Assembly: GCF_024256425.1 (NCBI RefSeq)
Contig: NC_071110.1
Coordinates: 2,316,274-2,380,273 of the forward strand
DNA length: 64,000 nucleotides
Reading direction: 5' to 3'
Origin: Clarias gariepinus
Taxonomy: Eukaryota
Positions 3,390-59,319 of the stretch are shown one piece after another. A program made the position numbers and the translations under genes. The notes under the pieces are model-generated. The model was not told the origin of the DNA, made no database searches, and was given only the letters and a program-made list of their open reading frames with translations. The stretch's first letter is position 1, and every line of letters starts with the position of its first letter.

Positions 3390-3749
3390 CTGTTGTTTAC
3401 TTCTTTCTGCTTCAGCTAAAACTCTATCATGATCTTTATGTTCTCCCATCATACACATGTAACAGATGAAGCTTTGGTCAGTACGACAGTAGATGTCGAT
3501 CAGTTTGTTATGCTGAGAGCAGAATTTCTCTTGGAGCTCACAGGCTTCCATTAATTTGTGCCTCTTAAAGGCAGGAGACTGAAGATGAGGTTTAAGATGG
3601 TGTTCACAATAGGAGGTCTTACAGTCCTCACAGGACTTGACAGCTTTGCGTTTTCTCCCGGTGCAGGAATCACACTCCACATCTCCAGGTCCAGCGTAAC
3701 GATCATCAGGAGAAGCAGTGTGGTCATTAAAAAAACCATCCATTTCCAT
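3390..3749 (-). CDS. finTRIM-like gene A, exon 1. The ATG is at 3749 and the exon encodes B-box1 plus B-box2 only; there is no RING. The peptide begins MEMDGFFNDHTASPDDRYAGPGDVECDSCTGRKRKAV and ends SKQQ|gtgaga.
   Basis: The ORF at 3357-3749 carries B-box Cys/His spacing (CDSC..C..C.....C..H; C..H....C..D...IC..C....H..H). An in-frame TAG lies two codons upstream of the ATG, and the upstream 80 bp has no RING-like coding. The donor is CAACAG|gtgagaac. Confidence 0.75.
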
Positions 3750-3826
3750 GCACTAACACACCGAGAGTAAGAGAAAGAAAGCACACGAATGAGAGAGCTG
3801 GAAAGAGAAAGAGGAACTGTCAGGTA

Positions 3827-3838
3827 AGTTTCGTTTCC
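3827..3838 (-). promoter_or_regulatory. ISRE/IRF-E-like element (sense-strand GGAAACGAAACT) about 80 bp upstream of the gene A ATG. A second GAAAGAGAAAGAGGAA run lies at 3800-3815.
   Basis: Tandem GAAA half-sites can be read directly. The same class of motif sits at a similar distance upstream of all the other TRIM start codons in the window. Confidence 0.45.
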
Positions 3839-12895: not shown

Positions 12896-13270
12896 CTGTT
12901 TTTTACTTCTTTCTCCTTCAGCTACAACTGTATTATGGCCTTTATGTTCTTCTATCGCACATATAGGACAAATGAAGCTTCGGTCAGTACGACAGTAGAT
13001 CTCGATCAGTTTGTCATGCTTAGGACAGATCTTCTCTTGGAGCTCACAGGCTTTCATTTATTTGTGCTTCTTCAATTTAGGAGACTGATAGTGAGGTTTA
13101 AGATGATCTTTACAATAGGAGGTCTGACACACCAGGCAGGACTTAACCGCTTTGCGTTTTCTCCCGTTGCAGTAATCACACTCCACATCTCCAGGTCCAG
13201 TGTAACGATCAGCGAGAGAAGCAGTGTGGTCACCCAGACGCTGATTACTCGAAATACCAGCCATTTCCAT
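12896..13270 (-). pseudogene. finTRIM-like gene B, exon 1 (B-boxes only, no RING). An in-frame TAA at 13058-13060 changes KHK-L-MEA to KHK-stop. The gene is likely a pseudogene or a recently inactivated allele.
   Basis: The six-frame track splits this exon into ORFs at 13058-13270 and 12863-13057. Gene A has TTA (Leu) at the homologous codon. Confidence 0.65.
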
Positions 13271-13367
13271 GCACTAACACACCGAGAGTAAGAGAAAGAA
13301 ATAAAGTAAGAAAGAAAGAAAGCACACGAATGAGAGAGGTGGAAAGAGAAAGCGGAACTGTCAGGTA

Positions 13368-13379
13368 AGTTCCGTTTTC
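13368..13379 (-). promoter_or_regulatory. ISRE-like element (sense-strand GAAAACGGAACT) upstream of the gene B ATG. It is a weaker copy of the gene A motif.
   Basis: Direct reading. It has one mismatch to GAAANNGAAACT. Confidence 0.3.
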
Positions 13380-32199: not shown

Positions 32200-32470
32200 T
32201 TCCTTTCTTTGAGTGTATAATCCAAAGGATTTTGCATGCACCCATTCGGATCTTCCTCATCCCCAAAGTCATTAATACACACCTTACAGTAACTGTAGTC
32301 AATGGATCTTTTAAGAGATTTAGACACACTGGACTCTCTTGATCTGTTAAAATACCTGCCTCTGCCATTTTGCAGGAGTCATACACTGGGGTGAGGGTAT
32401 GTGCGTGGGTTTGGAGATTGCCTAAGAGGTGGCCGAGTTTCGTTTTCTGGGAAAAGAGCTTCATATAGTT
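32200..32470 (-). pseudogene. Orphan, frameshifted remnant of a finTRIM exon 1. It keeps the 5' UTR, the ATG and part of the RING.
   Basis: The two overlapping ORFs read ..SPVCLNLLKDPLTTVT.. and ..SYCKVCINDFGDEEDP.., which match CPVCLDVLTEPVT / SYCKVCINGCWDQEDV of genes C and D. The nucleotide blocks cattaatacacaccttacagtaactgt and cctctgccatttt are shared with 39600-39790. No downstream exons are present. Confidence 0.65.
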
Positions 32471-33099
32471 CTTTTTATGGTTTTGTGTAAAGGTGTGGCT
32501 TTAAAGAGACAGATTTTTGTATTGTAAATCAGTTTCTGTGATATACCCATATAAAGTTAATTTGGCTTTATGCAAACTTGAATGCATTTACAGTATATAA
32601 TGTTAATGCATAAAAAAAATCCATTGATAGTGCTGACTAATTAAACCACAAAAACTGACATTAATTTCACAAAAAATATAAATGCATTTGAACCAAATAA
32701 AATTAAAACAAATGTACAAAGCAGCGGTCCATTCTTCATACGTCATTAACTCAGTTAGCTGGATTTGATTGTTGTGGATTTGTCCTGATCTTGGATTGTT
32801 TCGTTCTTCGATGCGCTTCTCGCATTTGCTGTCATATCAACATATCTGTAAGCTTAAACCCGCTTGGAAGCAGGTTTATTTAATGTGAACAGGATTTGGG
32901 CTCCGCTCCAACAATAATCAAAGGCATATGGCAGAACATAGGCTCTATGGCAAGACAGACAATTAAGGACATATACAAACAAACTAAGCAGGGAGCTAAA
33001 ACGGGACAAGACTAGAAACACAGTGGGACTAGAGACACTAAGACTCCAGAGACCGGGCTAAAGATGAGACTAGAGACACACGAAGAGACTATGGCTAGA

Positions 33100-33230: not shown

Positions 33231-35217
33231 TAACAGGACACAACCAACAATACTTACATAAACATTAAACACACACCACACCTCACATGACCGAGTCAGC
33301 TCCACAAACATAGACGCACACTGAACATAAGACATAGCTAACACTACAGCCTTTTTATCTTAACAAAACAAAACAAAATGCCCACATAACGACAGTAATC
33401 TTTAAACAATGCTCAACCCAGTTTCCCAGACTAAACAGCTATTTATAGATGATCTAATGGTCTACCTTGGTTCAGGTGTGCACTCGCATCACCTGACCGA
33501 GGTGCCTTCTGGGAAACAAAAGAGTCTGCAAACAAAACTACAAAAAAATTAAAACAGTGACCTCTAGTGGTGGTCCCATTCTGACAGAAAACTACTGCAG
33601 CGGCAAATCACAGCTTTTGCTATTTCCAGTTATCATGGGCTGTGGATAGTTAATAGTAAATACTACATGCACAATATACTTAACATTATAGTAAATAATT
33701 ATACTTAAAATTATAGTAATTGAATTGCTTTAGTGAAAATGGCTAACGTTATTGGATGCAATGCTAAATAAGGTAATTTAACTCACTTTTTTCAGGATGG
33801 GTTTGCTAAAACATCCAACTTGCAAACTAAATATAAACATAAATAATCACAAAGTATATTAAAATTATATCCTCTTTTAATTTAATAGTTTAAATCCACT
33901 TTTTAATGTCGAGTTACATTAATGAAATCACAGCCGTGCGTCAGTTGTTTGTGGCCTGCTTCCCTTCTAACTGAAAATTCCTGCGGTTACTTTGGACAAT
34001 CAAAAAAGACCAGCAGCTACTTCGGCCAACCGGTGCTTTGTTGCTTTGCCTAATAGGTAACACAGCAACTGATCATTCATGAAACAGTAATTGTGGTCAG
34101 ATTTATGCAGAAGTGAATAATAAATTCCATTTTTTATTGATAGCTACAAGTGTTGACTGAATGTATTTATTATTTAATTAATAAATACATTCGAAAATGC
34201 TACGATAACATTTATTAAAAGGTTTTCAGAAGTATTTGGTTTTTGCAATATATGTTTTAGTTTTACATTTTATTTTCCAGTAGTTTTTTTTTAATTGCTA
34301 TTATAATTAATATTTAAGATAAATATTAGAAAATGTAAATGTTGCTTCATATTTTGATGTGGAAATCTATGTTTTGTTCATAGAGTGTATGCTATCTGCA
34401 CATGTAATACAAAGGGAGTAAACTAGCAGTGAAGGTTACTGTACCCTTGATGTAAGAACAATTATGTACCTTCAATTCAGTTGTACTTTAAAAGGTAAAA
34501 AAATGTATCTCCAGAGGTCTTTTGCGTGACATTTAGGGTAGATTTATCAAAAAGGTACAAAACTGTTTTTAGAGAAACATTATTTGCACAACTGTGTAAA
34601 TTTTTTTTCTTAGAGTGTATAAAAAAAGCACCACCTATACTTATACATGCAAAAAGGGTAAATAAAATAGATTTAAAATGTACTTTTGGATTAAATATTT
34701 AAAATAAAATTAAAAAATTAAAATTAAAAAATTAAAATAATAATATTTTGTCTATTATTGTCGGTACTTTTATTGATATAACACCACATTATAATTTGCC
34801 ACCAAGAATATGTAGAAAAAATTTCTCTGCTAAAAAAAATCTTATAATCAAGAATCTCACTTTTAATACTAAATACTAACATTATAAAAAAAAAACACAT
34901 TCTGTTATAGTTGGGTTTTTTGTGTGTGTGTCAGTTACTGTAAATGTAAATGGAATAATTTAACTTTTATTTTAATAGGACTCTTGGGTAATATAGCATA
35001 TTGTATTAGCTGTAAGCCTTAAAATGTAAAAATCTTATACACTTAGTAACAGACGTTTTAACATAGTTAAGTTTATTGTCTTCACTTTTAGCGGAAAGCA
35101 GAATCAATCACAAGACACATCAAGACATGCAATTTTCTGCTAAATAGTGAAATTCTCAAGTAAGCTTCTCAAAACAATAAAGTTTTTAATTTACTTAGCA
35201 ATTTTCCACAAATTCTA

Positions 35218-35744
35218 TTTTGGATCACATAACCTCATAGGGGAATCATAACTCCATATAGAGAACCCAGCGTACAGAGGCTGAGTGAATGTGGTGTGCA
35301 CTGTGTGGAGGAGGCTCATCGTGTCAGGGACGCTGTAGAAGGACAAAGTTCCTGCATTGTGATCTACATACACTCCTATTCTGGAGGACGCTGAACCTTG
35401 AAGCTCAGTTATAATGCTATTGTGCCGGAAACAAACAGAGGAAGAAGAACACTCCAGACTCCAAGATTGACTGTTGCGTCCAAACCTACACTCTTTGCCC
35501 TCTCCTTTCCTGCTGATCTCTTTATATGAGACTGATATTTCCACACCAAACCCGCTCCACTCCACCTCCCAGTAACAGCGTCCACGCATACTCTCCTTAC
35601 ACAAGACCTGAGGCCAGGAGTCAAATCTCTCTGGATGATCAGAGTATCCTTGCTGTTTCCTACTGAGAGTTACATCTCTGTTGTTTTTAAATATAAAGAG
35701 TTTGCAGTTTGCTGTGTTGGGATCCAGAGTCAGATAATTAAAAT
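35218..35744 (-). CDS. finTRIM-like gene C, terminal B30.2 exon. It encodes (D)FNYLTLDPNTANCKLFIFKNNRDVTLSRKQQGYSDHPERFDSWPQVLCKESMRGRCYWEVEW...GVYVDHNAGTLSFY..PLYAGF..CDPK and the stop codon is at 35215-35217.
   Basis: The acceptor is tttcag|ATTTTAA, phase 1. The frame is open from the acceptor to the stop. Confidence 0.8.
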
Positions 35745-36463: not shown

Positions 36464-36691
36464 ATGTGTGTGCATATATATACTCCTGTCTCCCACAATA
36501 AACTTTGAACATCTCACTGAGCACTGACTTGTGTGTTTCATTGAGAGGTAACCTGGCCAGATGGGACAAGCAAAATACAGGCTGAGCACTTGAGTAGACA
36601 AAAGGGGGTCTACCAAAATGTAAGAAATCCTTACAGTGTGACTTTATGGAGTCTTGTTTTTGTGATGCAGAACAAATGTTTGTTTCTTTAC

Positions 36692-36815
36692 CTTGTGAAT
36701 GAATTTTGTTGAATTCCTCCACACAGATTTCCTCGACTCGTTTTCTCAGATCTGAGAGAGATTTCCTCACTCCATCAAATGAGAGATGTTGATTGACAGT
36801 GAAGCTGGGTGAGTC
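36692..36815 (-). CDS. finTRIM-like gene C, exon 4 (124 nt).
   Basis: The acceptor is gtgag|GAC and the donor is CAAG|gtaaag. The frame is continuous. Confidence 0.6.
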
Positions 36816-37039
36816 CTCACATCCAGGAGAAACACAGAGAGACGGGAAACTCTACAGAGATGAAACACATCATAGAGAAGGAGAAAAGTGTAGGAGAGGA
36901 ACGAATGAATCTCAGACTGAATCAGACCAAAGACACACTTGTGATCTCAGACAGGAACATTTATTGTTGCTGTAATGAGCTTTTAGGAGGAAACTTTGTG
37001 AGGAACAGCGCCCTCTGTAGATCAGACAGTGAGTGTTAC

Positions 37040-37273
37040 CTGGAGGAAGTGGATGTGATCGTGTGTGTGTGAAAGCTGCTCCAGCTCAGTGACTCTCCTC
37101 TTAAGATCAGCAATCTCCTGCTCCAGTTGCTCCAGGAGTCGTTCAGCTCGACTCAGTTCAGCTTTCTCCTGAGCTCTGATCAGCTCCGTCACCTCCGAGC
37201 GCTTTTTCTCCATGGAGCTGATCAGCTCAGTAAAGATCCTCTCATTGTCATCTACTGCTGCCTGTGAATGTAT
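37040..37273 (-). CDS. finTRIM-like gene C, exon 3 (234 nt). It encodes IHSQAAVDDNERIFTELISSMEKKRSEVTELIRAQEKAELSRAERLLEQLEQEIADLKRRVTELEQLSHTHDHIHFLQ.
   Basis: The acceptor is ctaacag|ATA and the donor is CAG|gtaaca. It overlaps the ORF at 37022-37213. Confidence 0.75.
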
Positions 37274-37458
37274 CTGTTAGGGCACACACACACACACACA
37301 CACACACACATGCAAAGAAACATTTAAGACTCAAAAAAAAAAAGAAGAGTGTTTGTGTTTAATAGTTGTTTTTTTTTAAAGAGCTTTCTTGGCATGATTT
37401 TAAAGTCACAGGAAAAGCAAGAAGAGGAGGGTGTTTTTCTATAAGTTGATTCTCTTAC

Positions 37459-37554: not shown

Positions 37555-39170
37555 CTAAAAGAAAATTAAATCATTTTAATTATTTCAGTATCAGAAAATC
37601 AGTTGGTCATTATTATCAGCCAATAAAAAAAGGGTTCACTCATGTTCTAGGTGACTTTAAATGTGAATACCTGTTAAAGTTTCACCTCTCTATGTGTACT
37701 GTGCAAAAGTCTTAAGCCATCATACACCGTACACAAGTACCCGACGGTAACCCACCAAACACGGGGAGAACATGCAAACTCCATGCACACGAAGACGGGA
37801 ATCGAATCTAGCCGGGAAAGCCACCCATCTATTCATATTAAATATAATTAAATAAATTTAGACTAAATAAAAAAAATGGGAACAAAGTTTCTACTGTGAC
37901 AGACTGCAAAGTGCCCACAGTATAAACAATATACAGTACAGTGGAACTTTTTCTTTTCTTATTTGAGTTTTTTACAGAAAATTTAAGGAAGTGTGTATGT
38001 GTGAGAAAAATGTGTCTGAATAATAATGAGATGAATAAATGAATGATAAATGAAATGTCTCTGATGAGCGAGCCAAGGGTGACGGCGACAGTGGCAAGGA
38101 AAAACTCCCTGAGATTGCAATAGGAAGAAACCGTGAGAGGAACCAGATTCAACAGGGAACCCATCCTCATCTGGGTGATAACAGATAGAAAGTAAAAATA
38201 AAACAAATTAACCTGCACTTTATCTTTAAAAATAAATGCTACAGAGCAGTGTTTCTGTGTAGAGCAGAGAGTGTGTATGTGTGTGTCGAGAGGAGGAGGG
38301 GTGTGTGTGTGTGTGTGAAGGGGCACGGTGTCTAATGATAAGCGAGAAAATAGATCTTTAATCTCTTTTGCTTTCTTTTTGCTTTACATGCGCACACACT
38401 TGTGTTATAATAAACAGTACACGCATGCTGTACACACACGCATACAAACACAAAACAAAATATGTTTTACACGCGCACATGTGGTCACAGGGTTATAGTA
38501 AACAGTAAACAGAGTGAGAGACACGCTCTAAGATCGAACAGAGGAGACGATTACCCACAATTCCGCAGCGCAAGAGAGAGAAAAACCGTTGGCTGTGTTG
38601 TGATCACGTGATGCTCGATGTCAAAACAAGAAGCGCATGCGTGATGCATGATACTCGGTACTCGTAAACGCAGACTTGTTCATTTTTCAAGTCAAAATTT
38701 AATAAAAATGGTGCAGAACATTCGCAAACCGTGTTACCCATAATGCGCGAGTCCACTGATTGTATATTGTAACTAGTTTTGGTTTTGTTTGAATGTGTTA
38801 TCTTGAAGAAATAACAACTTTTACATTACATTAAAATAGACCAGAATTATTCATTGTACTGAAACACAACATGAATTCAATTGCATTCAGACATAAAAAT
38901 CTTATCTTTTATCTACATGAGTTATGAAACAAATGATACTTGTAAGAAAGACCACACCCAAAGCTGAGTTCTTCCTTTTTACTCGCCAATGAACTTATCT
39001 AAAAATGAATCTCCATGTTCCTTTCTCTACCACACGACTGCTCTGACCTGTTTTATACTTTCTGACCAACAAACCTCTTCTAACAAAAATTCCCCTTACA
39101 GTGAGTGACTAAAAAAGGAACTACTATATTATTACTTACTTAAAAAAGTATAATGATTACAAGTTCTCAC

Positions 39171-39770
39171 CTCTTTTTCAGTTCTTTCTACTTTAGCTAA
39201 AACTGTATCATGATCTGTATGTCCATCCATTTTACACAAGTAACAGATGAAGCTTTGGTCAGTACAACAGTAGATGTCAATTAGTTTGTCGTGCTGAGAG
39301 CAGATCTTCTCTTGGAGATCTGCACAGGCTTCCACTAACTTGTGTTTCTTAAAGGCAGGAGACTGATAGTGAGGTTCAAGATGATCTTCACAATAAGAGG
39401 CCAGACACACCAGACAGGAATTAACAGCTTTGCGTTTTCTTCCAATGCAGGAATCACACTCCACATCTCCAGGTCCAGCGTAAGAGTAAGCAGGAGAAGG
39501 GGCTTGGACTTCAGTCTTCTTTAGTTTCACCACCACTTCAGCCAGAATGTTGTTCCTATGTAGAACAGGCCTTGGGGTAAAAGTCTCTCTACACTGAGGA
39601 CAGCTGTAGACACCCTTCACATCCTCCTGATCCCAGCAGCCATTAATACACACCTTACAGTAACTGTGACCACAGGAATTAGTCACTGGTTCTGTCAGGA
39701 CATCCAGACACACTGGACAGGTGAAGTGATCCACTGACAGCTTATCTACTAAAATATAGTCCTCTGCCAT
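39171..39770 (-). CDS. finTRIM-like gene C, exon 1. It encodes the C3HC4 RING plus B-box1 plus B-box2 and begins MAEDYILVDKLSVDHFTCPVCLDVLTEPVTNSCGHSYCKVCINGCWDQEDVKGVYSCPQCRETF...
   Basis: The 212-aa ORF at 39132-39770 carries canonical RING and B-box Cys/His patterns. The donor is ACTGAAAAAGAG|gtgagaac. Confidence 0.85.
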
Positions 39771-39832
39771 TTTTCTACACTACCACACTGAGAGAACGGT
39801 TCTGTGTTTGAAGGTAAACATAGAGATTGCTG

Positions 39833-39844
39833 AGTTTCGATTTC
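39833..39844 (-). promoter_or_regulatory. ISRE. The sense-strand GAAATCGAAACT is a perfect match to GAAANNGAAACT. It lies 63-74 nt upstream of the gene C ATG.
   Basis: Direct reading. The identical motif is at 57508-57519 upstream of gene D, and GAAAACGAAACT lies upstream of the orphan RING remnant at 32436-32447. Confidence 0.55.
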
Positions 39845-40502
39845 TTGTAAATCCACAGGAAGAAAATTTGTGGTTTTGTAATAAATAGATCTGACTAACT
39901 GAAAATATGTGGGAATTACCCTGTACCCTAAATAGCTTTTATTGATTTTAAAATTGATTGGTTTACAAATAATGCATATATGAATGTGTTTTTATATAAT
40001 CATTGCAATTTGTATGCCTAAAGAATAATTGAAAGCACACAATGATTATGACCATGGGCGTCGCTAGGCCATTTTTAGGGGGGGCTTTAGCCCCCATAAA
40101 ATTTTGTACTCAGCCACCCTTAAAATTCTCCATAAACTTCACACAAGTTGCTGATCGCCCATCGTCCCCTTTAAATTTTGTATGAAAGCAGCGGCAGACT
40201 TCGGCTCCTTCGGCTCCTCCCCGTCTTTCAGCGCGGCCTTTAATTCGCCAACACAGAGGGAGGATTAAGGCAAGGTGTGTGTCTGCATCAGTTCAGTCCT
40301 TTCTCATAAATACAGTTTACTAAATGTCCTGAGGGATTAATCAGTTAAATCCTTGCTATGTCACCCTCATCATACCAGCTGTTTCCTTTAGTGAAAATTA
40401 AGCTCTTAATACATCAGACTCTATGAACCTAAAGTCTACTTTATAAAACAATCATGCCGTTGCAAAACCTTATTTGGAAAACCTAACTGTCTATACAAAA
40501 CA

Positions 40503-43500
40503 TTACACAGTGCTTATGGCATTAACTACCATAGAGTTATGCACATAAATTAATAAAAATAGTGACAGACTATGGGGGGGTCGGCCCGGAGGTCGTGGTG
40601 CTGGGCGGTCCGGCCGTGTCAGGTGGAATTCTGTAATGAGCTCTCTGCTTAGCACATCACGGGCCGGGACCCAGCTGCGCTCCTCCGGTCCATACCCCTC
40701 CCAATCGACCAAGTATTGCAGGGCAACTCCTCTCCTCCAGGAGTCTAGAAGTCTTTTGACTCTGAACGCAGGGGCGCCCGCTATTTCCACAGCCCCGGGG
40801 AGCGAAGGCTCTGCGACGCCTCCGTCCAAGGGCCCCCGCACTACTGGCCTAAGAAGAGACACATGAAAGACAGGGTTAATACGCATATGAGCGGGGAGCT
40901 GTAACTTAAAAGAGACAGGGTTAATGCATGCTACAATGGGAAAGGGGCCGATGTATTTAGGGCAGAGTTTGCGACATGGGAGGTTGAGGGAAAGGTCCTT
41001 TGTCGAGAGCCACACTCGATCGCCTAACTGGAGCGGAGGACTTTCCCTTCGCCGTCTATCGGTGAATTTTTTAAAATGGCGAACTGCTTGGGAGATTTTA
41101 GTGTGCGCATCCTCCCATACTTTTTTCGCTCTTTTGAACCACTGATCCACCATGGGGATATGGGTGGAAGTGGCATCCCATGGACAGAGCGGTGGTTGGT
41201 GCCCCAGTACACATTGAAACGGCGTTAAGCCGGTCGAGGAGTGTTTCAGTGAGTTTTGTGCATATTCCGCCCAGAATAAGCAGTCTGCCCACTCATGTTG
41301 TCGACTACTACAATATGCCCGGAGGTACCTCCTGAGATCCTGACAGCTCTGCCTGTCCATTAGATTTGGGGTGATAACCCGACGTTAGGCTAACAGTTGT
41401 CCCCAACTTCTGGAAGAAAGCTTTACAGACTCTCGCGATGAATTGGGGACCACGATCTGAAACAATGTCCTCCGGAATACCGTAGTAGCGAAACACCGAA
41501 TCGAATAGGGTTTCTGCCACCTGGAGGGCGGTTGGAAGCGAGCTAAATGGGAGAAATCGGCATCCCTTAGAGAAGCGATCTACCACGACTAATATTGTAG
41601 TGTACCCTTTAGACACTGGCAGATCCGTTACAAAATCCACGGCGATGTGGGACCACGGCCTGTTCGGTGTGGGCAGGGGCATTAATTTTCCAACTGGCAA
41701 ACATCGAGGGGTTTTAGTTGTTGCGCAAACAGCACAAGACGAAACTACTGTTTTCACGGTTTCCCGCATGTTTGGCCACCAGAACTTTGGTTCTACAGTA
41801 GGAGATGGTATGTTCTCAAAACTCCGGGGTGTCCTGAAGAAAAGCTGGAATGTGCCTCTATCGTCACTCGTTCTCGAAGTACTCTCGAAGTTCTCGGACG
41901 TAGGTTCGGCCCTGTGGACAACCCCGCGCCACGGGTTGGGAACGCATCGCCTGGGTTATCTCCGAGTCGATATCCCACAGTACCGGAGCCACGACAAGTG
42001 ACGGAGGCAATATGGGTTCAGGATCCGAATTCAGATCCGGCGTCGGGAAACAGCGGGATAGCACATCCGCCTTTATATTTTTAGAACCGGGACGGTACGT
42101 GATGGTAAAATGGAAGCGCGTAAAAAACAGCGCCCATCGGGCTTGACGAGAGTTAAGTCTCTTTGCTTGTTGGAGGTACTCCAGATTCCTGTGATCTGTT
42201 AGTACCACGAATGGGTATTTAGCTCCCTCCAACCAATGCCTCCACTCCTCTAACGCCGCTTTGACTGCTAGCAGTTCGCGATTCCCGATATCATAATTGC
42301 GCTCGGCAGGTGTCAGTTTCCGTGAAAAAAAAGCACAGGGGTAGAGCTTTTCTGGGTGGCCGTGGCGCTGTGACAGCACTGCTCCCAACCCCACCTCCGA
42401 CGCATCGACCTTGACTAAAAAAGGCTTCTCGGGATCAGGCAGTTTTAGAATAGGCGCGGAGGTGAAACCTTGTTTTAGTCGCTGGAAAGCCGTACGTGCT
42501 TCCAGCGAAAACGCGCGTAGCCGTTGTGGTTTTCCCTTTAACAAACCGGTGAGCGGTGCTGCCATCATGCTGAAGCACCTAATAAAGCGCCTATAGAAAT
42601 TAGCAAACCCAAGAAAGCTCTGTAGTGCCTTTACTGACTTGGGTTCCGGCCATTGTTGCACCGCTGTTACCTTGGCTGCATCCATTTCGACCCCCTGTGG
42701 CCCATGTGATAGCCGAGGAATGCGATCTCACTCTTGTGAAATTTGCATTTTTCTGCTTTCACATAGAACCCGTCTTCCCGTAGTAGACGAAGGACGGCGG
42801 TTACATGACGGACGTGTTTAACATATGAGTATATGTTTAACATATGAGTATATTAGAATATCATCTAAATATACTATAACAAAACGGTTCAACATATGCC
42901 GAAACACGTCATTCATGAACCCCTGAAACACCGCAGGTGCATTTACCAGTCCATAAGCCATCACGTTATATTGGTAATGACCTGATGTAGTGCTAAACGC
43001 AGTCTTCCATTCATCACCCTTGCGAACACGAACGAGGTTATAGGCGCTGCGGAGGTTGAGTTTGGAAAATATGGACGCGCCGCGGAGCTGGTCGATAGCG
43101 GCCGGTACCAAGGGCAGAGGGTGCTTATATTTTACTGTGATTGCATTGAGCCCTCGATAATCAATACATGGACGTAGACCCCCGCCTTTTTTTTCGATAA
43201 AAAAGAAACCTGCCGACGCGGGTGACGTGGACCTGCTGATGAGCCCCTGACTGAGAGCCTCAGTCACGTATTCCTCCATGGCCCGAGTTTCTGCCGCGGA
43301 CAATGGATAAATGCGTGAGCAAGGCGGTGTTTTCCCCAGCAAGAGATCAATCGCGCAGTCCCACGGACGGTGAGAGGGAAGTCGTGCGGCTGCCCTAACG
43401 CTAAACACATCTTTAAACGAAGTGTACTCAGATGGCACTGTGGTAGATACCTGGGCGGTCGGGCTTTCAATAGTGGTGGTTTGGACCGTTAACGTGGACG

Positions 43501-44770
43501 GTGTACAGAATTTAGCGCATCTTGGGGCCCAGGAAATGATGCGTGAGCCTGCCCAATCAATATTGGGATTGTGAGAACTGAGCCACGGTAAACCCAGTAC
43601 GACGGCTTGGTCTAGCTGAGGAATCACAAAGAATTTTAATTCCTCCGCATGACCGGGAAATTTTAACCGGAGGGGCACGGAAAGGTTCAACAGGCGAATA
43701 CGCTAAGGTTTTGCCATCTAGAGCCTTAATTGCGATCGGATGCGGAAGCTTCGACACTGGAGCTTGCAGCGAGGAAAGGACAGCAGACGAGACGAAGTTT
43801 CCAGCCGACCCAGAATCTATTAGGGGAAACACAGAGACAGAACGATTATTATATGACAAGGTGGCCTGTAAACAAAAATTGTGGTGTGTGCGAGGTGGAG
43901 TGCGTGTAGTTACTTTAAGTAACGGACAGTTTCGGAGCTGATGTGTACCCCCCCACAGTATAAACATAACCCCGACGACAGCCTTCGGTGCCTCTCCTGG
44001 GCCGACAGGCGGGATGTGCCCACGTCCATGGGCTCCGGCGAGCTCTCCTCGCGCGGCTCGACGGGGGGTTTGCTGTCGACGCGGTTCGGACCCTCCGCTG
44101 GCTCCTTTCGCTGGATAAGGTCTGCGATGTCCGCGGAGGTGCTGGTCCAGCTTAATCGCCAGTTGGATGCTGTCATCTAGCGACAAACCCGCGTCCCTGC
44201 GTGCCAGCTCCAGCTGCAGGTCGGGGTGCAGTCCATCTCTGAACCTGGCAAGTAAGCTCTTGCTGCACCAGCCACTCTCCGCGGTGAGGATCTGAAATTT
44301 CACGGCGTAGTCCGCCACTGTAGATTGTCCTTGTTTCAGCCTCAGCAGTTGTTGTTCCCCCGTCCTTCCGTGGTCAGGATGGTAGAACACCGCGCGAAAC
44401 TCGTGGAGAAACTGGTGGTAACTGGACGTGGTGCTCCTGCCAGCGTTCCATACTGCGGTGGCCCAGTTCAGCTGTTGGATGACAAAACTGACCTTCTTTC
44501 CCTCTGAAAGATCAGGAAAGTCGGCCAGGTAGAGCTCGCAGGCTAGGAGGAATTTCTTGCACCCCTCGGGGTCTCCTGCGTATCTCTCCGGAGGGGCTGC
44601 CCGTGGTGGAGAGCGTGCGGACCGGCGTTGGGGCGTGGCCAGTGGTGAGGTTCTGAACGCCGCGCGCCAGGTCGTTGACTGACCTCGCCAGCACGTCGAT
44701 CTGTCGTTGCTGCCGTCGGACGTAATCGAGGTAGGGGGGTTCATCTTCAGGGAGGGGAGGTCTGTTCATC
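40503..44770 (-). mobile_element. Ty3/Gypsy chromovirus-like LTR retrotransposon internal region (gag-protease-RT-RNaseH-integrase-chromodomain). It is degraded by frameshifts, and no clear LTRs were identified.
   Basis: The ORFs give RT with YLDDILIYS (42818-43690), RNase H (41864-42685), an integrase DDE core (41308-41769) and a C-terminal chromodomain ..LVDWEGYGPEERSWVPARDV.. (40503-41360). A small tandem duplication gtttaacatatgagtata x2 at about 42810-42860 sits in the gap between the RT and RNase H ORFs. The element is CpG-rich compared with the host DNA. Confidence 0.85.
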
Positions 44771-49466: not shown

Positions 49467-49704
49467 TATGACCAGTTCAGAGGTGTATGAGTGAGGCAGA
49501 AATAAAATCCTTAATTTTAGCCTCTGTTACTCTGTGTCAGTAATTCATACAATTATTATTTCAAATGAGACCATGATGATGAATGTAATGCAAAAAATGT
49601 GGGAACTGTGCTCTTTTTACTTTGGTTATACTATTACTGGATCAAAAAAAATTAAAGGGGTGAAATTTAACAGGTTAAATCTAAGTTTAAGTCATCTTCA
49701 TTTA

Positions 49705-50267
49705 CATAAAAGATGAATCGTCACTATCGTCGACATTTAATTCTGGATCACATAAATTTATATTTGAGTAAAAATAACATATCCTGAACCCAGCGTACAG
49801 AGGCTGAGTGAATGTGGTGTGGACACTGTGGAGTAGACTCATCGTGTCAGAGACGCTGTAAAAGCACAGAGTTCCTGCACTGTGATCCACATACACTCCT
49901 ATTCTGGATGGTGATGGACATTGGAGTTTTATTTCAGTGTTGTTGTGCCAGAAAGATACAGATGTACGATAACACTGCAGATTCCAGGAATGACTGTTGC
50001 CTCCAAACACACCCTCGTCACCCTCTCCTTTCCTCCTGATCTCTTTATATGAGACTGATACGTCCACACCCATACCCTTACACTCTACCTCCCAGTAACA
50101 GCGTCCACACACACTCTCTCGACACAACACCTGAGGCCAGGAGTCAAATCTCTCTGGATGCTGACTGTATTGATGTGCTTCCCTACTGCGTGTCACTGCT
50201 CTGCTCCTCTCAGACAGAATGAGCTGATCGTGTGCTGTGTTGGGATCCAGAGTCAGATAACGAAAAT
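49705..50267 (-). CDS. Intact B30.2 exon of the gene A/B subtype, beginning (D)FRYLTLDPNTAHDQLILSERSRAVTRSREAHQYSQHPERFDSWPQVLCRESVCGRCYWEVECKG. It is the probable true terminal exon of gene D, or a stand-alone spare exon. The stop codon is at 49702-49704.
   Basis: The acceptor is ttttcag|ATTTTCG, phase 1. The 3' flank (48100-49700) and the 5' flank (taatcacaag.. at 50291) are homologous to the flanks of the gene A/B B30.2 exon (6170-9110; 9716-9745). Confidence 0.6.
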
Positions 50268-52432
50268 CTGAAAAATTAAAATGTCCACAGGCTAGATATT
50301 AATCACAAGTTTATAATAAAGTGCCTTACAATTTATTCAAGTTTCTTAAAAGTCACTACATTCATCTGGATTACAAATTATAGATGTAATGCTCTTACAT
50401 TTTAATTTTTAACTTTTTCCATCAAAATGTATTATTTTTAAGCAAAACCTGAAAAATGCTGTTTGCATAAATATTCAAGTTTTTCAGCCTAGTACAGTAT
50501 ATATATATATTATTTGCAGCTTTAACAGCTTTAGATCTGCTGCGGTAAGATAGCATGATGGTTTTTTTACCACCACATTTTATTTTAGTGATGCTGATGT
50601 TTGTCACGTCTTTGGTTCTTTTTAAACAATTGTTCCTCGACTCGCTCACATTAGTATCTGTCATGTTTTTGCTCTGAGTTTTAAGGCATAGTCTTTTCTA
50701 GGTAGTGCTTGGGTGGTGTGGTGCAGCTTTAACTTCTTCACAGCTCACAGCACTTACTAAGATGCCCAGCCTCTTAGATTAAATTCAGTTTAATTCAATT
50801 CAATTTAATTTGTATGTATAGTGCTTTAAACAGTGATCTTTGTTGCAAAGCAACTTTACCGAAATGTGTATGAAATGTGAGAAAATGTGTATAAGTCAAA
50901 ATGATCAGATAGTCCCTGATGAGAAAGCTGAGGTTGATGGTGGCAAGGAAAAACTCTCTGAGATAGCAACAGTTTTGTGCAGTGGCTGTAAATACGGTTC
51001 ATCATGATACACTGCTTGTTTAGGCAAGTTTTGGCGCTGTGATTAGGTTTCCATCTTTCCGCACGTCGGTCCTCGCATAGCGGGGTTTGTAGGATGCCTT
51101 TCACACACACACACACACACATACACTAACTAACGGTTTGGGAATGACTGCTGTCTGGCTAACGGATTACATAAATTGTCTGAATAACGGATTACATTTT
51201 TTTTTAAATAACAAAAAAACTGAGTACTTAAATGGCGGACCTAAAGGGTTACTAGTTACATCAAAAAAGTAATTCAAGTACTCTAATGTGTTACTTTGTA
51301 ACGCGTTACACTCAACACTGGGTAGGACCCACTTATAAAGCAGGTCACACTTTAGAATTAATATTATCCTTAAAATTAATTATAGGAAATATAACCATGA
51401 ATCCACAGTCTGAAGCTATCTCAGATCATTTCTTGTCTCAATTAAAGTGTGTCACAGTAATAATGTTCGCACAGCACTGCACTACCACATTAAACGTACA
51501 AGCAGGCACTCCGGTAGGACTAACTATGACATTATAACTAAAAGGGAGAGCCAGAAGGAAACACAGACATGAGGGCTCCCTGAGATGTAAAGCAAACAAT
51601 CACCTCGCCGTCAGCAAACCTGAGTGATCAATGAGAGTGAGGAGGACAGCATCTAAACATACCAGTTCACCATAATACTCTACGTCCATGAGTCCCCCAG
51701 ATCTGCTCCTTTACCTATGGCAAATCTATTTATAAAAATGCTAGGCTAAATAAATAGGTTTTTAGCCCTGACTTAAACACTGAGACTGTGTCTGAGTCCC
51801 GAACACTATTTGGAAGACTATTCCATAACTTTGGGGTTTGGAAAAGAAAAAGCTCCGCCCCCAGCTGTAGTTTTCATAATATGCGGTACTGACAAGCAGC
51901 CTGCATCCTCTGATCGAAGTAGGCGTGGCGGATCGTAAGACACTAGCACTACTACCACTGGGTGCCAATGCAGTGTGGATAAGATAGGGATGATGTGCTC
52001 ATATCTTCTGGTTCTAGTGAGGACTCTCGCTGATGCATTCTGGACTAACTGAAGCTAGTTTATGCACCTAGTTAAATCAGCTGTAAGGCATTACAATAGT
52101 CCAACCTAGAGGTGATAAAAGGATAAGATAATTTTTTTCTGCATCGTTTAGTCACAATATATTTCTTATTTTGGCCATATTTCTGAGATCAGATAATGCT
52201 ATCCTGGTAATATTATCTACATGACCGTCAAATTACAGATTAGAATCTATAATCACACCGAGGTCTTATACTGTTGGACTTGATGGAACAGAAAAGCCAT
52301 CCAGAGTTACTGTGTAACCAAAAAGTGTAATTCAAAAAGTTATTCTTTGCTTGCCCGTTAGACCTAATCAGAAAAGTTTGTAATATAAATAAATCATTAT
52401 GATATGTTTTTTTTTTTTGGTGGTGGGGGTCA

Positions 52433-52495
<63 letters not shown>

Positions 52496-52773
52496 ATTTT
52501 ACACCTACACTTCAGAAAATCTTCTCTTTGTTTTGGTTCTGAGGGTAAACCCTTTTGAACTACTGCAGCTGTGGAGACACAAAGACAAAACTTAGACAAA
52601 TGTAATATGTTTAGAGCCCCATCAAAAATACTGACAGAAACTGTCCTATCAGCAAATCCAAAAATGTTAAAACATGTAAATAACTTTCACTTTCTGCAAG
52701 AATGAAAGTATCAAAAAGCAGGATTATAGCTGCTATAAATAGGTTAAATCTAAGTTAAAGTCATCTTCATCTA

Positions 52774-54009: not shown

Positions 54010-54243
54010 CTGGAGGAAGTGGATGTGATCGTGTGTGTGTGAAAGCGGCTTCATCTCAGTGACTCTCCTCTTTAGATCAGCAATCTCCTGCTCCAGTTGC
54101 TTCAGGAGTCGTTCAGCTCGACTCAGTTTAGCTTTCTCCTGATCTCTGATCTTCTTTGTCACCTCCGAGCGCTTTTTCTCCATAAGGCTGATCAGCTCAG
54201 TAAAGATCCTCTCATTGTCATCTACTGCTGCCTGTGAATGCAT
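54010..54243 (-). CDS. finTRIM-like gene D, exon 3 (234 nt). It encodes MHSQAAVDDNERIFTELISLMEKKRSEVTKKIRDQEKAKLSRAERLLKQLEQEIADLKRRVTEMKPLSHTHDHIHFLQ.
   Basis: It corresponds to the ORF at 53992-54243 and has the same splice junctions as the other copies. Confidence 0.75.
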
Positions 54244-55454: not shown

Positions 55455-56845
55455 GCTAATGCAAGAGGAGAAGGAGGAATCAGACCCTACCCTCTCCCTC
55501 TTCTTGTCTTACATAGTAACCCTTCTTCCTCTCTTCTTCCTCACACACACACACACACACACACATTAACGCAAGGACTTTTTTATCGGGAAAATTTACA
55601 AGGAACATCGCTAATGACACTCGCATGAGCACATACTAATGGAATCACTGCTGTAAAGTAAAAAACAAACAAACAAATTAACCTCGCACTTTACCTTTAA
55701 AAAGAATCGTGACAGAGCAGTGTTTCTGTGTAGAGCAGAGAGTGTGTATGTGTGTGTAAAGGGGCACGGTGTCCAATGACACGCAGACACACAAAGTGCA
55801 AGCTGATACAGAGAGAGAAAATAGATCTTTAGCTTTCTTTTGCTTTCTTTTACACACGTGTGGTATAAGTAAAAGTACACACACGATGTACACACGCGCA
55901 TACAAACACAAAACAAAATATGTTTTACACGCACACACGTGGTCACAGTGTTATAGTAAACAGTAAACAGAGTAAGAGACACGCTCTAAGACCGAGCAGG
56001 GGAGACGATTACCCACAATTCCTCAGCGCAAGAGAGAGAAAAACTGTTGGCTCTGTTGTGATCACGTGACGCTCGGCATCAAAACAAGAAGCGCATGCGT
56101 GATACATGATACTCAGTACTTGTAAATCAAGACTTGTTCGTTTTCCAAGTCAAAATTTATTAAAAATCTTTGCTCATCTTGCAGAACACTTGCAAACCAT
56201 GTTACTTACAATGCGTGAGTCCACTGTACATATATTGTAACTAGTTTTGGTTTTGTTTGAATGTGTTGTCTGGGGAAAATAACAATGTTACTACTTTTAT
56301 AATACATTACATTAAAATAGACCAGAATTATTCATTGTACTGAAACGCAACATGAATTCAATTGCATTCAGGTGAAAAATCTCTTCTCTTTTACCTACAT
56401 GAGTTACAAAACAAATGATATTTGTAAGAAAGACCACACCCAAAGCTGAGTTTTTATCTAAACATATCTAAAACTTATCTAAAAATGAATCTCCATGTTT
56501 CTTTCTCTACCACTCAGAAAGTTTCGACATGACTCAGCTTTGCACCAACCACATCAATCACAAACCGTTATGTTCATACTATACATTTTCCCAACTGTTT
56601 TTTAAGTTTAATTTACATGTATTAGAGCAACAATTCAGTTTCAAATGAAAAGGCAAATATTATACCCAAGCAGCACAGCAATAAAACTAATTAAAGTACA
56701 CTGACTGCTCTGACCTGTTTTATACTTTCTGACCAACAAACCTCTTCTAACAAAAATTCCCCTTACAGTGAGTGACTAAAAAAGGAACTACTATATTATT
56801 TGTATATACTTACTTTAAAAAAGTATAATGACTTTAAGTTCTCAC

Positions 56846-57445
56846 CTCTTTTTCAGTTCTTTCTACTTCTGCTAAAACTGTATCATGATCTTTATGTTTA
56901 TCCATTGTACATGAAAAGCAGATGAAGCTTTGGTCAGTACGACAGTAGATCTCAATCAGTTTGTCGTGCTGAGAGCAGATCTTCTCTTGGAGATCTGCAC
57001 AGGCTTCCACTAACTTGTGCTTCTTAAAGGCAGGAGACTGATAGTGAGGTTTAACATGATCTTCACAATAGGAGGCCAGACACACCAGACAGGACTTGAC
57101 GGCTTTGCGTTTTCTCCCGGTGCAGAAATCACACTCCACATCTCCAGGTCCAGCGTAGCAGTGAGCAGGAGAAGCAGGCTGGAGTTCAGTCTTTTTCAGT
57201 TTCTCCACCACTTCAGCCAGAATGTTGTTCCTATGTAGAACAGGCCTTGGGGTAAAAGTCTCTCTACACTGAGGACAGCTGTAGACACCCTTCACATCCT
57301 CCTGATCCCAGCAGCCATTAATACACACCTTACAGAAACTGTGACCACAGGAAATAGTCACTGGTTCTGTCAGGACATCCAGACACACTGGACAAATGAA
57401 GTGATCCACTGACAGCTTATCTACTAAAAGAGATCCCTCTGCCAT
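56846..57445 (-). CDS. finTRIM-like gene D, exon 1 (RING plus two B-boxes). It begins MAEGSLLVDKLSVDHFICPVCLDVLTEPVTISCGHSFCKVCINGCWDQEDVKGVYSCPQCRETF...
   Basis: The 203-aa ORF at 56834-57445 has the donor GAAAAAGAG|gtgagaac. The ISRE GAAATCGAAACT lies at 57508-57519 on the sense strand. Confidence 0.85.
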
Positions 57446-59319
57446 TTTTCTACACTACCACACTGAGAGAAAGAGTGTCTGTTTGAAGGTACACATAGAG
57501 ATTGCTGAGTTTCGATTTCTTCCACCGGAAGAAAATTTGTGGTTTAACTGACTAACTGAAAATATGTTTAAAAATATGTGGGGAATTACCCTGTACCCTG
57601 AGTAGAATCTTTTATTGATTTTAAAATGGATTAGTTTACAAATAATGCATATATAAATGTGTTTTTATATAATTGTTGCAATTTAAAATAATTTAGAGCA
57701 CACAATGATTATGACAATGATGCAGTTAGCAACACAGATTGTAATAAAAGCTTTTAAAAAATCTGACTCTAAGAAACTTTATAATGATGTAAGAGTTGTG
57801 AAGCAGTGCCATGAGGGGACAAATTAACAAAACTAAACTAAATGCAAAAAAAGGGAAAGAGCCGGATTAGACTTTTAAAGACTCATATGATATATAACCA
57901 GTTTCCTTCGTTAATTGACTTTTAAAACAAGAAAGTAACTTGAGGCATAAAAGCATTTAAGGATCTCCGAGTTGCTCAGTGGTAAAGTGCTCGCCCTATT
58001 ATCCAGAGATCTGTAACCTCTCGCAGCCGGAGGTCTAGAGAGAGCTAATGATGGATCAGAGGTACTACATGCTCCCATATTAATCACAGCTCTACAGACA
58101 ATTAGGGGCGTCTGTGAGCTCACGCAAGCAGAATGAACGGATAATGCTGTCCTCTGAGTGTGTTATGAAAACCCCTGGGGTTTAGTGGATGAGGCATAAT
58201 TGCAGAGGTTAAGATTTTGATAAACACAAACAAATAAAATAAAATAAAAAAAACAGCTGGACAAAGCAGAAGAAAACAGCACAAAACATAGAATAGCAAA
58301 CCTGGTAGAAAAACAGTCCAGTTATGTTACTATGACGCAGAAGCTCAGAAGCATGTATCGAGCAGAAAGGGGCATGTCCAAATAAAGTCTAGTTTCGAGG
58401 TGCATTTTGGGAAACAAAATCCAAAACGTAAACTATGCCTGCATTCCATTTTGAAGTGTACTTCATAGTGTGCTCCCTACTCACTGCTTCATTTGCAGGA
58501 AATGTCAGTAAAGGAAACTTCTCTCAACAAAACTCCACCATTCGGAACACCCTGCGAAGTCACTTTAGTTCTGTGCAGACGTGCAGACGCCACTTTCTCC
58601 ATGTGTCACCATGGTAACATAAGCACCTCGGATACCTGTTGCTGCTGCTCTGGAAATTTCACACTACAGACATTAAATGTTGTATATTTATTGAAAGAAA
58701 AACTGATACCATTATTAAACATACTATTGTATTAAACATACTACAACGTGTATACCTTGGGAATAAATTATTGATTAATAATAAAAATTTATTAAAGATG
58801 TACAAAGATTTTTTTTTCTCATAGATTACTTGTCCATATAACATTAAGGATTTTTTTTATTAATTTAAAATTTAAATTGTTTTGTCCTTTTAATATGATG
58901 TTGTCCTCTGTAATAATTATTTTTATTTGTATAGCACTTTTAACAATTGTCATTGTTGCAAAGCAGATTATGATAATACATATATAAATATCCTTTTTTG
59001 AGCTCCATTTTTTTTCACGCTCCATGACATATGGTACATTTTTCATTCCCTTTTCCGGTGAAGTGAAGACCTGGTGTTCACTTGTTCCCTACACCGTTCG
59101 CAGTTCTGTTTAAACTGAAAATTTTCACTTCTTGCAGTTTGATATCACACTTAACATGGCTAAACACCCTGTGAAGTATACTTCGCAGAGTACTTCAGGC
59201 TGATTGGAATGCACCTTAAGTCTCATGATGCAAGGTGCCCTCTAGGGGTCATTCCTGACACACAAACTGGGTTGGATTATTATGAAGAAATAAACAACTT
59301 TAATGCTTTGTCAAATTCA

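What the first reader, a model, noticed from the sequence alone, without database searches (positions are those of the whole stretch)
39824..39844. Conserved ISRE/IRF motif 60-90 bp upstream of every TRIM start codon, including the orphan remnant
On the sense strand, GAAATCGAAACT is at 39833-39844 (gene C) and 57508-57519 (gene D). GAAAACGAAACT is at 32436-32447 (RING remnant). GGAAACGAAACT plus GAAAGAGAAAGAGGAA is at 3800-3838 (gene A). GAAAACGGAACT is at 13368-13379 (gene B). GAAANNGAAACT is the canonical interferon-stimulated response element. Its retention in every copy predicts interferon- or virus-inducible expression of the whole array, consistent with the antiviral role reported for fish finTRIMs. 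If the AT-rich TATATAAAA box about 220 bp upstream is the real promoter, the motif lies inside the 5' UTR.
Basis: partly seen in the sequence, partly recalled or inferred. Interest (0 to 1): 0.6.

Follow-up and report, generated by a model that had tools for sequence, protein, structure and literature searches.

The report
Interferon-response element upstream of finTRIM genes
A 12-base interferon/IRF response element sits just upstream of every copy of a fish antiviral TRIM (finTRIM) gene in this window and is conserved at that position across distant fish groups. It is a real regulatory motif, but of a kind already described for this gene family.

Summary
GAAANNGAAACT occurs exactly three times in 64 kb (0.33 expected). 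All three are on the minus (sense) strand, 74-79 nt upstream of a TRIM exon-1 ATG: genes C and D and the RING remnant R. One-mismatch versions lie 89 nt (A) and 109 nt (B) upstream of the other two starts.

The genes are finTRIM-type, and the closest relatives are catfish TRIM25-like/finTRIM proteins.

I fetched 19 finTRIM exon-1 copies from other fish: catfishes, a characiform, conger eel, a salmonid-like contig, percomorph contigs and a mormyrid. Thirteen carry the motif (at most one mismatch) 40-66 nt upstream of the ATG, against 2.7% of random windows. In a cross-species alignment the motif is the best-conserved 12-nt block upstream of the gene, ahead of the start-codon context.

The most likely reading is an ISGF3/IRF-binding ISRE in a proximal promoter cassette that is copied together with exon 1. 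Published work already shows ISRE-containing, virus/IRF-responsive promoters for zebrafish ftr42, and IFN induction of many finTRIMs. This is therefore a new member of a known kind.

Caveats:
- B and R are pseudogenes.
- The TSS is unmapped.
- The TATATAAAA box is specific to C and D.
- There are no expression data for this species.

The parts
39833..39844 (-). ISRE of gene C (GAAATCGAAACT), 74 nt upstream of the ATG at 39770
   Evidence: Exact consensus match. Aligned with the motif of all other copies.
57508..57519 (-). ISRE of gene D (GAAATCGAAACT), 74 nt upstream of the ATG at 57445
   Evidence: Exact match; sequence read.
32436..32453 (-). ISRE of the RING remnant R (GAAAACGAAACT, 32436-32447) with an overlapping GAS-like TTCCCAGAA (32445-32453), 79 nt upstream of the relic ATG at 32368
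   Evidence: The 12-mer is identical to the form found in Conger, Pangasianodon, Ameiurus and Acnodon.
3827..3838 (-). ISRE of gene A (GGAAACGAAACT, one mismatch), 89 nt upstream of the first ATG at 3749
   Evidence: Same variant as the salmonid-like L008.
3800..3818 (+). Second, inverted ISRE/IRF-E-like element of gene A (GGAAAGAGAAAGAGGAACT), 8 nt from the first
   Evidence: Part of an insertion specific to A and B relative to C, D and R.
13368..13379 (-). Weakened ISRE of pseudogene B (GAAAACGGAACT, with G in the second GAAA core), 109 nt upstream of the ATG at 13270
13341..13359 (+). Inverted ISRE-like partner of B (GGAAAGAGAAAGCGGAACT)
39156..39770 (-). Gene C exon 1 (RING plus two B-boxes), intact. 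Its B30.2 exon at about 35215-35742 is also intact.
56837..57445 (-). Gene D exon 1 (RING plus two B-boxes), intact
3390..3749 (-). Gene A exon 1: RING-less, two B-boxes, open reading frame intact. Its B30.2 exon lies beyond the window edge.
12896..13270 (-). Gene B exon 1: RING-less, with an in-frame stop (pseudogene-like)
32226..32368 (-). RING remnant R (frameshifted, no downstream exons found)
39786..39792 (-). Candidate initiator (CTCAGTG; the A of CAGT is at 39789, 19 nt upstream of the ATG). The equivalent A in D is at 57464.
   Evidence: Inference only. A YYCAGT block about 20 nt upstream of the ATG recurs in most copies. The trout RACE/EST-validated primer starts at the corresponding G in L008.

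Best explanation
The 12-mer is the interferon-stimulated response element (ISRE/IRF-E) of a short proximal promoter cassette that travels with exon 1 whenever a finTRIM gene is duplicated.

Proposed mechanism: after virus sensing, IRF3/IRF7 can bind the tandem GAAA half-sites. After interferon signalling through JAK/STAT, ISGF3 (STAT1-STAT2-IRF9) can bind them too. Binding drives transcription that starts a few tens of bases downstream, most likely at an initiator-like CAGT about 20 nt before the ATG. That would put the element at roughly -30 to -55 from the TSS.

The intact genes A, C and D are therefore expected to be silent or low at rest and induced by virus, poly(I:C) or type I interferon. 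B and R carry the element only as a relic of descent. Many copies outside the window, and A and R inside it, also have a TTCNNNGAA (GAS-like) site overlapping the 5' GAA, or an inverted second ISRE. This suggests a composite STAT/IRF site.

Shown here: presence, strand, position, excess over chance, cross-species conservation, and finTRIM identity of the genes. Inferred: factor binding, inducibility and TSS position.
For: - Consensus matches far above chance, all sense-oriented upstream of the five exon-1 starts.
- A matrix built from foreign copies only recovers the five sites among the top 8 scores of the window.
- 13 of 19 foreign finTRIM exon-1 copies have the motif (at most one mismatch) 40-66 nt upstream of the ATG, against 2.7% of random windows from the same loci.
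- The taxa span Conger (Elopomorpha), four catfish genera, Acnodon (Characiformes), a salmonid-like contig that matches the trout finTRIM primer, and a percomorph contig whose protein is 88-89% identical to grouper and sea bass proteins.
- In the 12-lineage alignment the ISRE window has mean pairwise identity 0.885. The ATG/Kozak window scores 0.81 and the median window 0.35.
- The exact composite TTCNNNGAAANNGAAACT occurs 7 times in all fetched loci, each time just upstream of a finTRIM ATG.
- Gene identity: RING, B-box and PRY/SPRY domains; best hits are named finTRIM or 'fish virus induced TRIM'.
- Literature: the ftr42 promoter with ISREs responds to SVCV, poly(I:C) and IRF3/7 (PMC10973201); more than 20 zebrafish ftr genes are induced by IFNphi1 (10.1101/693333); trout finTRIMs are induced by VHSV and poly(I:C) (PMC2657112).
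Against: - There are no expression, binding or TSS data for this species, which is not in the protein collection.
- Two of the five copies sit on dead genes, so presence alone does not prove current function.
- B has a core-position substitution.
- Six of 19 foreign copies have a degenerate motif, so the element is not obligatory for the family. Basal zebrafish ftr82-84 are not IFN-induced.
- A CT-rich tract followed by CAG between the motif and the ATG looks like a 3' splice site in some catfish copies. The motif could therefore be intronic or in the 5' UTR rather than upstream of the TSS.
- The sequence cannot separate ISGF3 binding from IRF1/3/7/8 binding.
Confidence: 0.8

Rival explanations
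1. The element binds IRF-family factors but serves basal or cell-type-specific expression rather than interferon induction. For example, IRF1/2/8 with PU.1 or another ETS factor in leukocytes.
For: The core GAAANNGAAA is shared by all IRF sites. A and L008 read GGAAACGAAA, which fits the ETS-IRF composite GGAANNGAAA. ETS-like CAGGAAGT or CCGGAAG motifs lie next to the ISRE in catfishes, Brienomyrus, L008, C and D. Part of the virus response of zebrafish ftr genes is independent of the IFN receptor.
Against: The full 3' extension GAAACT, typical of ISGF3-type ISREs (established knowledge), is the best-conserved part. The family is experimentally IFN- and virus-inducible. The two roles are not mutually exclusive.
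Confidence: 0.08
2. The motifs are non-functional relics. They are similar only because the copies are recent duplicates, and they have no regulatory role in this species.
For: A~B and C~D are about 89% identical over kilobases, including the upstream region. B and R are pseudogenes that still carry the motif.
Against: Between the three lineages A/B, R and C/D the flanks are barely alignable while the 12-mer is kept. The same motif at the same place in fish groups separated since early teleost evolution cannot be explained by recent duplication.
Confidence: 0.06
3. The conserved block acts at the RNA or splicing level. It would be the branch-point region and polypyrimidine tract of an intron that ends just before the ATG, with a non-coding exon 1 and the real promoter further upstream.
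For: Several copies show (CT)n followed by CAG 4-22 nt before the ATG. The bases after the motif (ACTGAT, ACTTAT, ACTTAC) resemble branch-point consensus yUnAy.
Against: Vertebrate branch points are only weakly constrained, and they would not hold a 12-mer that equals the ISRE consensus. The CAG is lost in A and B (CGG), and the tract is absent or short in several copies. Further promoter-like blocks (a CACCC box and an ETS-like site) are conserved just upstream. The published zebrafish ftr gene structure has the RBB-coding exon as the first exon (PMC2657112). Even an intronic ISRE could still act as an enhancer.
Confidence: 0.04
4. Chance occurrence of an A-rich motif in an AT-rich genome.
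For: The window is 32-50% GC, and other one-mismatch hits exist.
Against: None of 100 shuffles reaches the observed counts. All five sites are sense-oriented within 110 nt of the five exon-1 starts. Foreign copies carry it in 13 of 19 cases against 2.7% background.
Confidence: 0.01

Closest known systems
ISRE-containing promoters of cyprinid finTRIM genes (zebrafish ftr42; crucian carp ftrca1)
   Same: Same gene family. Putative ISREs lie in the 5' flank, and the ftr42 promoter reporter is activated by SVCV, poly(I:C), IRF3 and IRF7 (PMC10973201).
   Different: Different species and paralogues; finTRIMs have no one-to-one orthologues between fish groups. The positions of the ftr42 ISREs relative to the ATG could not be compared because the supplement is not held. 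No functional test exists for the copies in this window.
Canonical mammalian ISRE, (A/G)NGAAANNGAAACT, of ISG15, IFIT2/ISG54 and IFI6, bound by ISGF3 (established knowledge)
   Same: Identical core consensus, including the GAAACT 3' half. Proximal location upstream of an antiviral gene.
   Different: The element here lies only 40-110 nt from the ATG and probably within about 55 nt of the TSS, or even in the leader. That is closer than the roughly -100 position I recall for the classic examples. Binding factors are untested.
Interferon-inducible primate TRIM6/34/5/22 cluster
   Same: A tandem array of B30.2 TRIM genes under diversifying selection, all type I IFN-inducible (PMC3597737 abstract).
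   Different: An independent expansion in a different TRIM subgroup. In that cluster the regulatory regions are reported to have been reshaped by endogenous retroviral insertions. Here the cassette is part of the gene duplication unit, and transposons flank it rather than supply it.
Composite or overlapping GAS/ISRE elements, as described for guanylate-binding protein promoters (recalled from memory, not checked here)
   Same: TTCNNNGAA overlaps the 5' GAA of the ISRE in R, in A (offset by one base) and in 10 foreign copies.
   Different: Absent from C and D (TTA or a different spacing). It could simply be the remnant of an inverted second ISRE (AGTTTCATTTC), as seen in the percomorph and catfish copies.

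Membership tests
ISRE / IRF-E cis-element | Sequence matches GAAANNGAAACT (two GAAA half-sites, 2-nt spacer, CT extension) | tested here: met
   Exact in R, C and D; one mismatch in A and B.
ISRE / IRF-E cis-element | Lies in the proximal promoter of the regulated gene, within about 200 bp of the TSS | tested here: inconclusive
   It lies 74-109 nt upstream of the ATG on the sense strand, but the TSS is unmapped. The candidate initiator about 20 nt before the ATG is inference.
ISRE / IRF-E cis-element | Evolutionary constraint on the motif relative to its flanks | tested here: met
   It is the best-conserved 12-column window (0.885 against a median of 0.35) across 12 lineages. 13 of 19 foreign copies carry it, against 2.7% background.
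ISRE / IRF-E cis-element | Bound by ISGF3 and/or IRF proteins | not testable with these tools
   Needs EMSA, ChIP or CUT&RUN.
ISRE / IRF-E cis-element | Confers interferon or virus inducibility on the linked gene | not testable with these tools
   Only homologues have data: the ftr42 reporter, zebrafish ftr RNA-seq and trout qPCR.
finTRIM (ftr) genes | RING + two B-boxes + coiled coil + B30.2, with the RBB in one first coding exon and the B30.2 in one last exon | tested here: met
   Met for C and, with a caveat, D; this matches the published ftr exon plan. A and B lack the RING. D's nearest B30.2 exon is frameshifted.
finTRIM (ftr) genes | Fish-specific TRIM25/TRIM16-like clade; closest relatives are annotated finTRIMs | tested here: met
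   Top hits are 76-79% identical catfish TRIM25-like proteins, plus Silurus 'finTRIM family member 16/67/14' and salmonid 'Fish virus induced TRIM protein'. No phylogenetic tree was built.
finTRIM (ftr) genes | Tandem arrays with pseudogenes and lineage-specific duplication | tested here: met
   Five exon-1 copies on one strand in 57 kb, two recent duplicate pairs, two pseudogenes and a spare B30.2 exon.
GAS element (STAT dimer site) | TTCNNNGAA palindrome | tested here: inconclusive
   Present overlapping the ISRE in R and A and in many foreign copies, but absent in C, D and B. It may be a by-product of an inverted ISRE half-site.

The most novel reading that the evidence does not exclude
The element is one part of an ancestral, position-locked promoter cassette: a CACCC box, an ETS-like site or inverted ISRE half, a GAS-overlapping ISRE, a short leader and the ATG. 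This cassette has been copied together with exon 1 since before the split of eels, otophysans, salmonids and percomorphs.

On this reading, every new finTRIM duplicate is born interferon-inducible, and the motif decays only when a copy dies or changes role. IFN inducibility of the diversifying finTRIMs would then be ancestral. It would not have been acquired repeatedly by recent insertion of motifs, as has been considered for lineage-specific ISGs.
Probability: 0.5. Interest if true: 0.4.

Novelty: new member of a known kind. Interest (0 to 1): 0.25.

Why it matters
The finding gives a concrete, testable cis-element for predicting which members of a large, fast-evolving antiviral gene family are interferon-inducible in a species without expression data. 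Intact ISRE plus intact ORF: A, C and D. Decayed: B and R.

The cross-species result suggests a simple genome-wide classifier of finTRIM paralogues: is an ISRE present 40-110 nt before the ATG? It also offers a mechanism, promoter hitch-hiking with exon 1, for how whole lineage-specific expansions stay under interferon control.

It does not change current understanding. ISREs in finTRIM promoters and IFN induction of the family are already published.

Tried and rejected
- Species identification by exact protein look-up: the window's exon-1 products are not in the 15-billion-protein collection.
- Gene look-ups for RefSeq isoform proteins of Anguilla, Oncorhynchus and Ictalurus returned nothing, so cyprinids and true salmonid genome loci could not be sampled. 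All 12 look-ups are used.
- Looking for transcript contigs to map the 5' end: the two short ENA contigs (L007, L008) are genomic, since the intron follows exon 1. They do not show the TSS.
- The ftr42 supplement with the promoter figure is not held. The founding finTRIM paper does not discuss promoters or UTRs; only its primer table was useful.
- TATATAAAA as the shared core promoter: rejected. It is found only upstream of C and D and is not aligned in A, B, R or other species.
- Origin of the motif from a transposon: rejected for this window. The self-comparison shows the motif region repeated only as part of the TRIM units. Transposons flank the cassette rather than contain it: a Tc1-like ORF at 13589-13984 and an LTR element at 40.5-44.7 kb.
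- Other high-scoring matrix hits: 11830-11847 lies in intron 2 of gene B; 54122-54139 falls inside a tblastn-aligned, probably coding, stretch of the coiled-coil region; 2630-2647 is a poly-A stretch I did not examine. I counted none of them as promoter elements.
- The bacterial promoter/terminator scanner was not used, because it does not apply to a vertebrate genome.

Full report
OBSERVATION

The pattern GAAANNGAAACT occurs exactly three times in the 64-kb window. All three are on the minus strand, at 32436-32447, 39833-39844 and 57508-57519. Dinucleotide-preserving shuffles give a mean of 0.33 and never reach 3. Allowing one mismatch gives 22 hits against 8.4 expected. These include 3827-3838 (GGAAACGAAACT) and 13368-13379 (GAAAACGGAACT), each with an inverted ISRE-like partner 8 nt away on the plus strand.

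WHAT THE GENES ARE

All TRIM units lie on the minus strand.
- Exon-1 open reading frames at 39132-39770 (C) and 56834-57445 (D) encode a RING and two B-boxes. Downstream ORFs encode PRY/SPRY.
- The best database relatives are catfish TRIM25-like proteins at 76-79% identity. They include entries named 'finTRIM family member' and 'Fish virus induced TRIM protein'.
- The exon layout matches the published ftr plan: an RBB first exon, coiled-coil exons, and a single B30.2 exon.
- The exact proteins are not in the 15-billion-sequence collection. The species is unidentified but looks otophysan.

Status of each copy:
- A (exon 1 to 3749) is RING-less but has an open reading frame.
- B (exon 1 to 13270) is RING-less and has an in-frame stop.
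- R (32226-32368) is a frameshifted RING remnant.
- C is intact.
- D has an intact exon 1, a frameshifted nearest B30.2 exon, and an intact B30.2 exon further downstream at 49702-50265.

A~B and C~D are recent duplicates at about 89% identity. The window therefore offers three independent lineages rather than five.

IS THE MOTIF MORE THAN SHARED DESCENT?

Between the three lineages the upstream regions barely align, apart from the 12-mer and about 25 nt before the ATG.

I then collected finTRIM exon-1 copies without reference to the motif. Thirteen came from genome records: Tachysurus, Pangasianodon (2), Ameiurus, Silurus, Acnodon (3), Brienomyrus, Conger (2), and two ENA contigs. Six more came from fish DNA in metagenome assemblies, found by protein similarity.

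Thirteen of the 19 carry the motif with at most one mismatch, sense-oriented, 40-66 nt upstream of the ATG. Only 2.7% of random windows of the same size from the same loci do.

The taxa are broad:
- Conger is an elopomorph.
- L008 matches the trout finTRIM universal primer around the ATG.
- The L011 protein is 88-89% identical to grouper, sea bass and black bass proteins, so it is percomorph.

In an 18-sequence alignment, the only invariant or near-invariant columns upstream of the Kozak/ATG block lie inside the motif. With one sequence per lineage, the motif is the best-conserved 12-column window: 0.885 mean pairwise identity, against 0.81 for the ATG context and a median of 0.35.

A weight matrix built only from foreign copies ranks the five window sites among the top eight of all positions on both strands. 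Of the other three, 11830-11847 is intronic in gene B. The site at 54122-54139 falls inside a tblastn-aligned, probably coding, coiled-coil stretch. The poly-A stretch at 2630-2647 was not examined.

Chance and recent duplication are therefore excluded as full explanations.

ANATOMY AROUND THE MOTIF

Many copies have TTCNNNGAA overlapping the first GAA of the ISRE. The exact composite TTCNNNGAAANNGAAACT occurs 7 times in the fetched loci, always just before a finTRIM ATG, and once in the window, at R. A has it offset by one base.

In percomorph and catfish copies this TTC belongs to an inverted ISRE half (AGTTTCATTTC or AGTTCATTTC) placed head to head with the forward ISRE. A and B instead have an inverted ISRE-like element downstream of the forward one.

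Further upstream, a GAACCAGGAAGT block and a CCAC(A/G)CC box recur in catfishes, Brienomyrus, L008, Conger, A and R. C and D have an inverted ETS-like CCACAGGAAG or CCACCGGAAG next to the ISRE. These short motifs were not tested statistically.

WHERE IS THE TSS?

This is unresolved.

A YYCAGT block, which is initiator-like, lies about 20 nt before the ATG in most copies. The trout 3'RACE primer, designed on a region confirmed by ESTs and 5'RACE, begins at the matching G in L008. At least that part of the leader is therefore transcribed and colinear with the ATG. If transcription starts there, the ISRE lies about 30-55 nt upstream of the TSS.

Alternatively, the CT-rich tract plus CAG seen in several catfish copies resembles a 3' splice site, which would make the motif intronic. 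I rate this unlikely, and it would not preclude enhancer function.

MECHANISM

The best-supported explanation is an ISGF3/IRF-binding ISRE that makes the linked finTRIM gene inducible by virus and type I interferon.

The supporting literature covers homologues only:
- The zebrafish ftr42 5' flank carries two putative ISREs. Its reporter responds to SVCV, poly(I:C), IRF3 and IRF7 (PMC10973201).
- More than 20 zebrafish ftr genes are induced by IFNphi1, while the basal ftr82-84 are not (10.1101/693333; PMC5445110).
- Trout finTRIMs rise more than 10-fold after VHSV or poly(I:C) (PMC2657112).

Binding and induction in this species are inferred, not shown. B (core substitution plus stop codon) and R are best read as decaying relics. 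Six of 19 foreign copies have also lost the motif, which fits a family where not all members are ISGs.

COMPARISON AND NOVELTY

The element is a member of the ISRE class by sequence and conservation. Membership by function is untested. It is the same kind of element already reported for cyprinid finTRIM promoters and for mammalian ISGs, so the finding is a new member of a known kind.

The one modestly new point is the position-locked conservation of the ISRE, often with an overlapping GAS-like site, from eels to percomorphs. It implies that interferon control is ancestral for the diversifying finTRIMs and is inherited by promoter hitch-hiking with exon 1. I did not find this stated in the papers I could search, but the library is incomplete.

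VERDICT

Novelty and interest are low (0.25).

Noticed in passing
window 3357-3749 and 12896-13270 (minus strand): Genes A and B have an exon 1 that keeps the promoter cassette, the ATG and both B-boxes but lacks the whole RING-coding part (tblastn matches query residues 92-203 only). A is an open frame. B has an in-frame stop. A RING-less finTRIM would lack E3 ligase activity.
   Followed up: partly
window 3800-3838 and 13341-13379: In A and B the forward ISRE and an inverted ISRE/IRF-E-like element (GGAAAGAGAAAG[A/C]GGAACT on the plus strand) form an imperfect palindrome with an 8-nt spacer. Read on the plus strand, the spacer region is CAGGTAAGT, a perfect 5' splice-donor consensus. The segment is an insertion relative to C, D and R.
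   Followed up: partly
window 32445-32453; L003 9936-9953; L005 9942-9959 and 22442-22459; L009 1119-1136 and 9929-9946; L011 and L016 555-572: A GAS-like TTCNNNGAA overlaps the first GAA of the ISRE. The exact 18-nt composite is found only in front of finTRIM start codons in all fetched loci.
   Followed up: partly
window 11833-11850 and 2292-2309 (minus strand): A second composite-looking site lies inside the short intron 2 of the A/B-type genes: TTCCAAGAAAACGAAAGT in B and TTCCAAGAAAAAGAAAGT in A. It is not in the block shared with C and D. It could be chance or an intronic enhancer.
   Followed up: partly
window 39853-39862 (+) and 57522-57531 (+); foreign loci just 5' of the ISRE: ETS-like cores sit next to the ISRE: CCACAGGAAG in C, CCACCGGAAG in D, and GAACCAGGAAGT in catfishes, Brienomyrus and L008. 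A CCAC(A/G)CC box lies further upstream (A 3882-3890, R about 32493-32499). Not tested against chance.
   Followed up: no
window 13380-13984: Homology between A and B stops about 7 nt upstream of the ISRE (3845/13386). In B the upstream sequence is replaced by a poly-T run and a Tc1/mariner-like transposase ORF (13589-13984), so B has lost everything 5' of the ISRE.
   Followed up: partly
window 40503-44744; 14840-19851; 22600-24584; 60605-63595: Retroelement ORFs fill the spaces between TRIM units. An LTR element with gag-pol-integrase and chromodomain-like ORFs begins about 270 nt upstream of gene C's ATG. A second pol-bearing element lies at 14.8-19.9 kb. LINE-type reverse transcriptases lie at 22.6-24.6 kb (minus strand) and 60.6-63.6 kb (plus strand).
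   Followed up: no
window 52738-53282 and 49669-50327: Gene D's nearest B30.2 exon has a frameshift and a short deletion. A second, intact B30.2 exon lies 3 kb further downstream. It is 90% identical to B's B30.2 region together with its flanks. It may be the exon actually used by D, or it may be an orphan.
   Followed up: partly
window 1628-2255, 11162-11785, 36684-37310: The coiled-coil exon region is 93-94% identical between the A/B-type genes and gene C, while their exon 1 B-box parts are only about 80-83% identical. This suggests gene conversion between otherwise diverged paralogues.
   Followed up: no
window 25952-27122: A minisatellite with a unit of about 32 nt (TAGAAACATGCTAGCAACTTGCTAATCATGC), about 31 copies at about 80% identity.
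   Followed up: no
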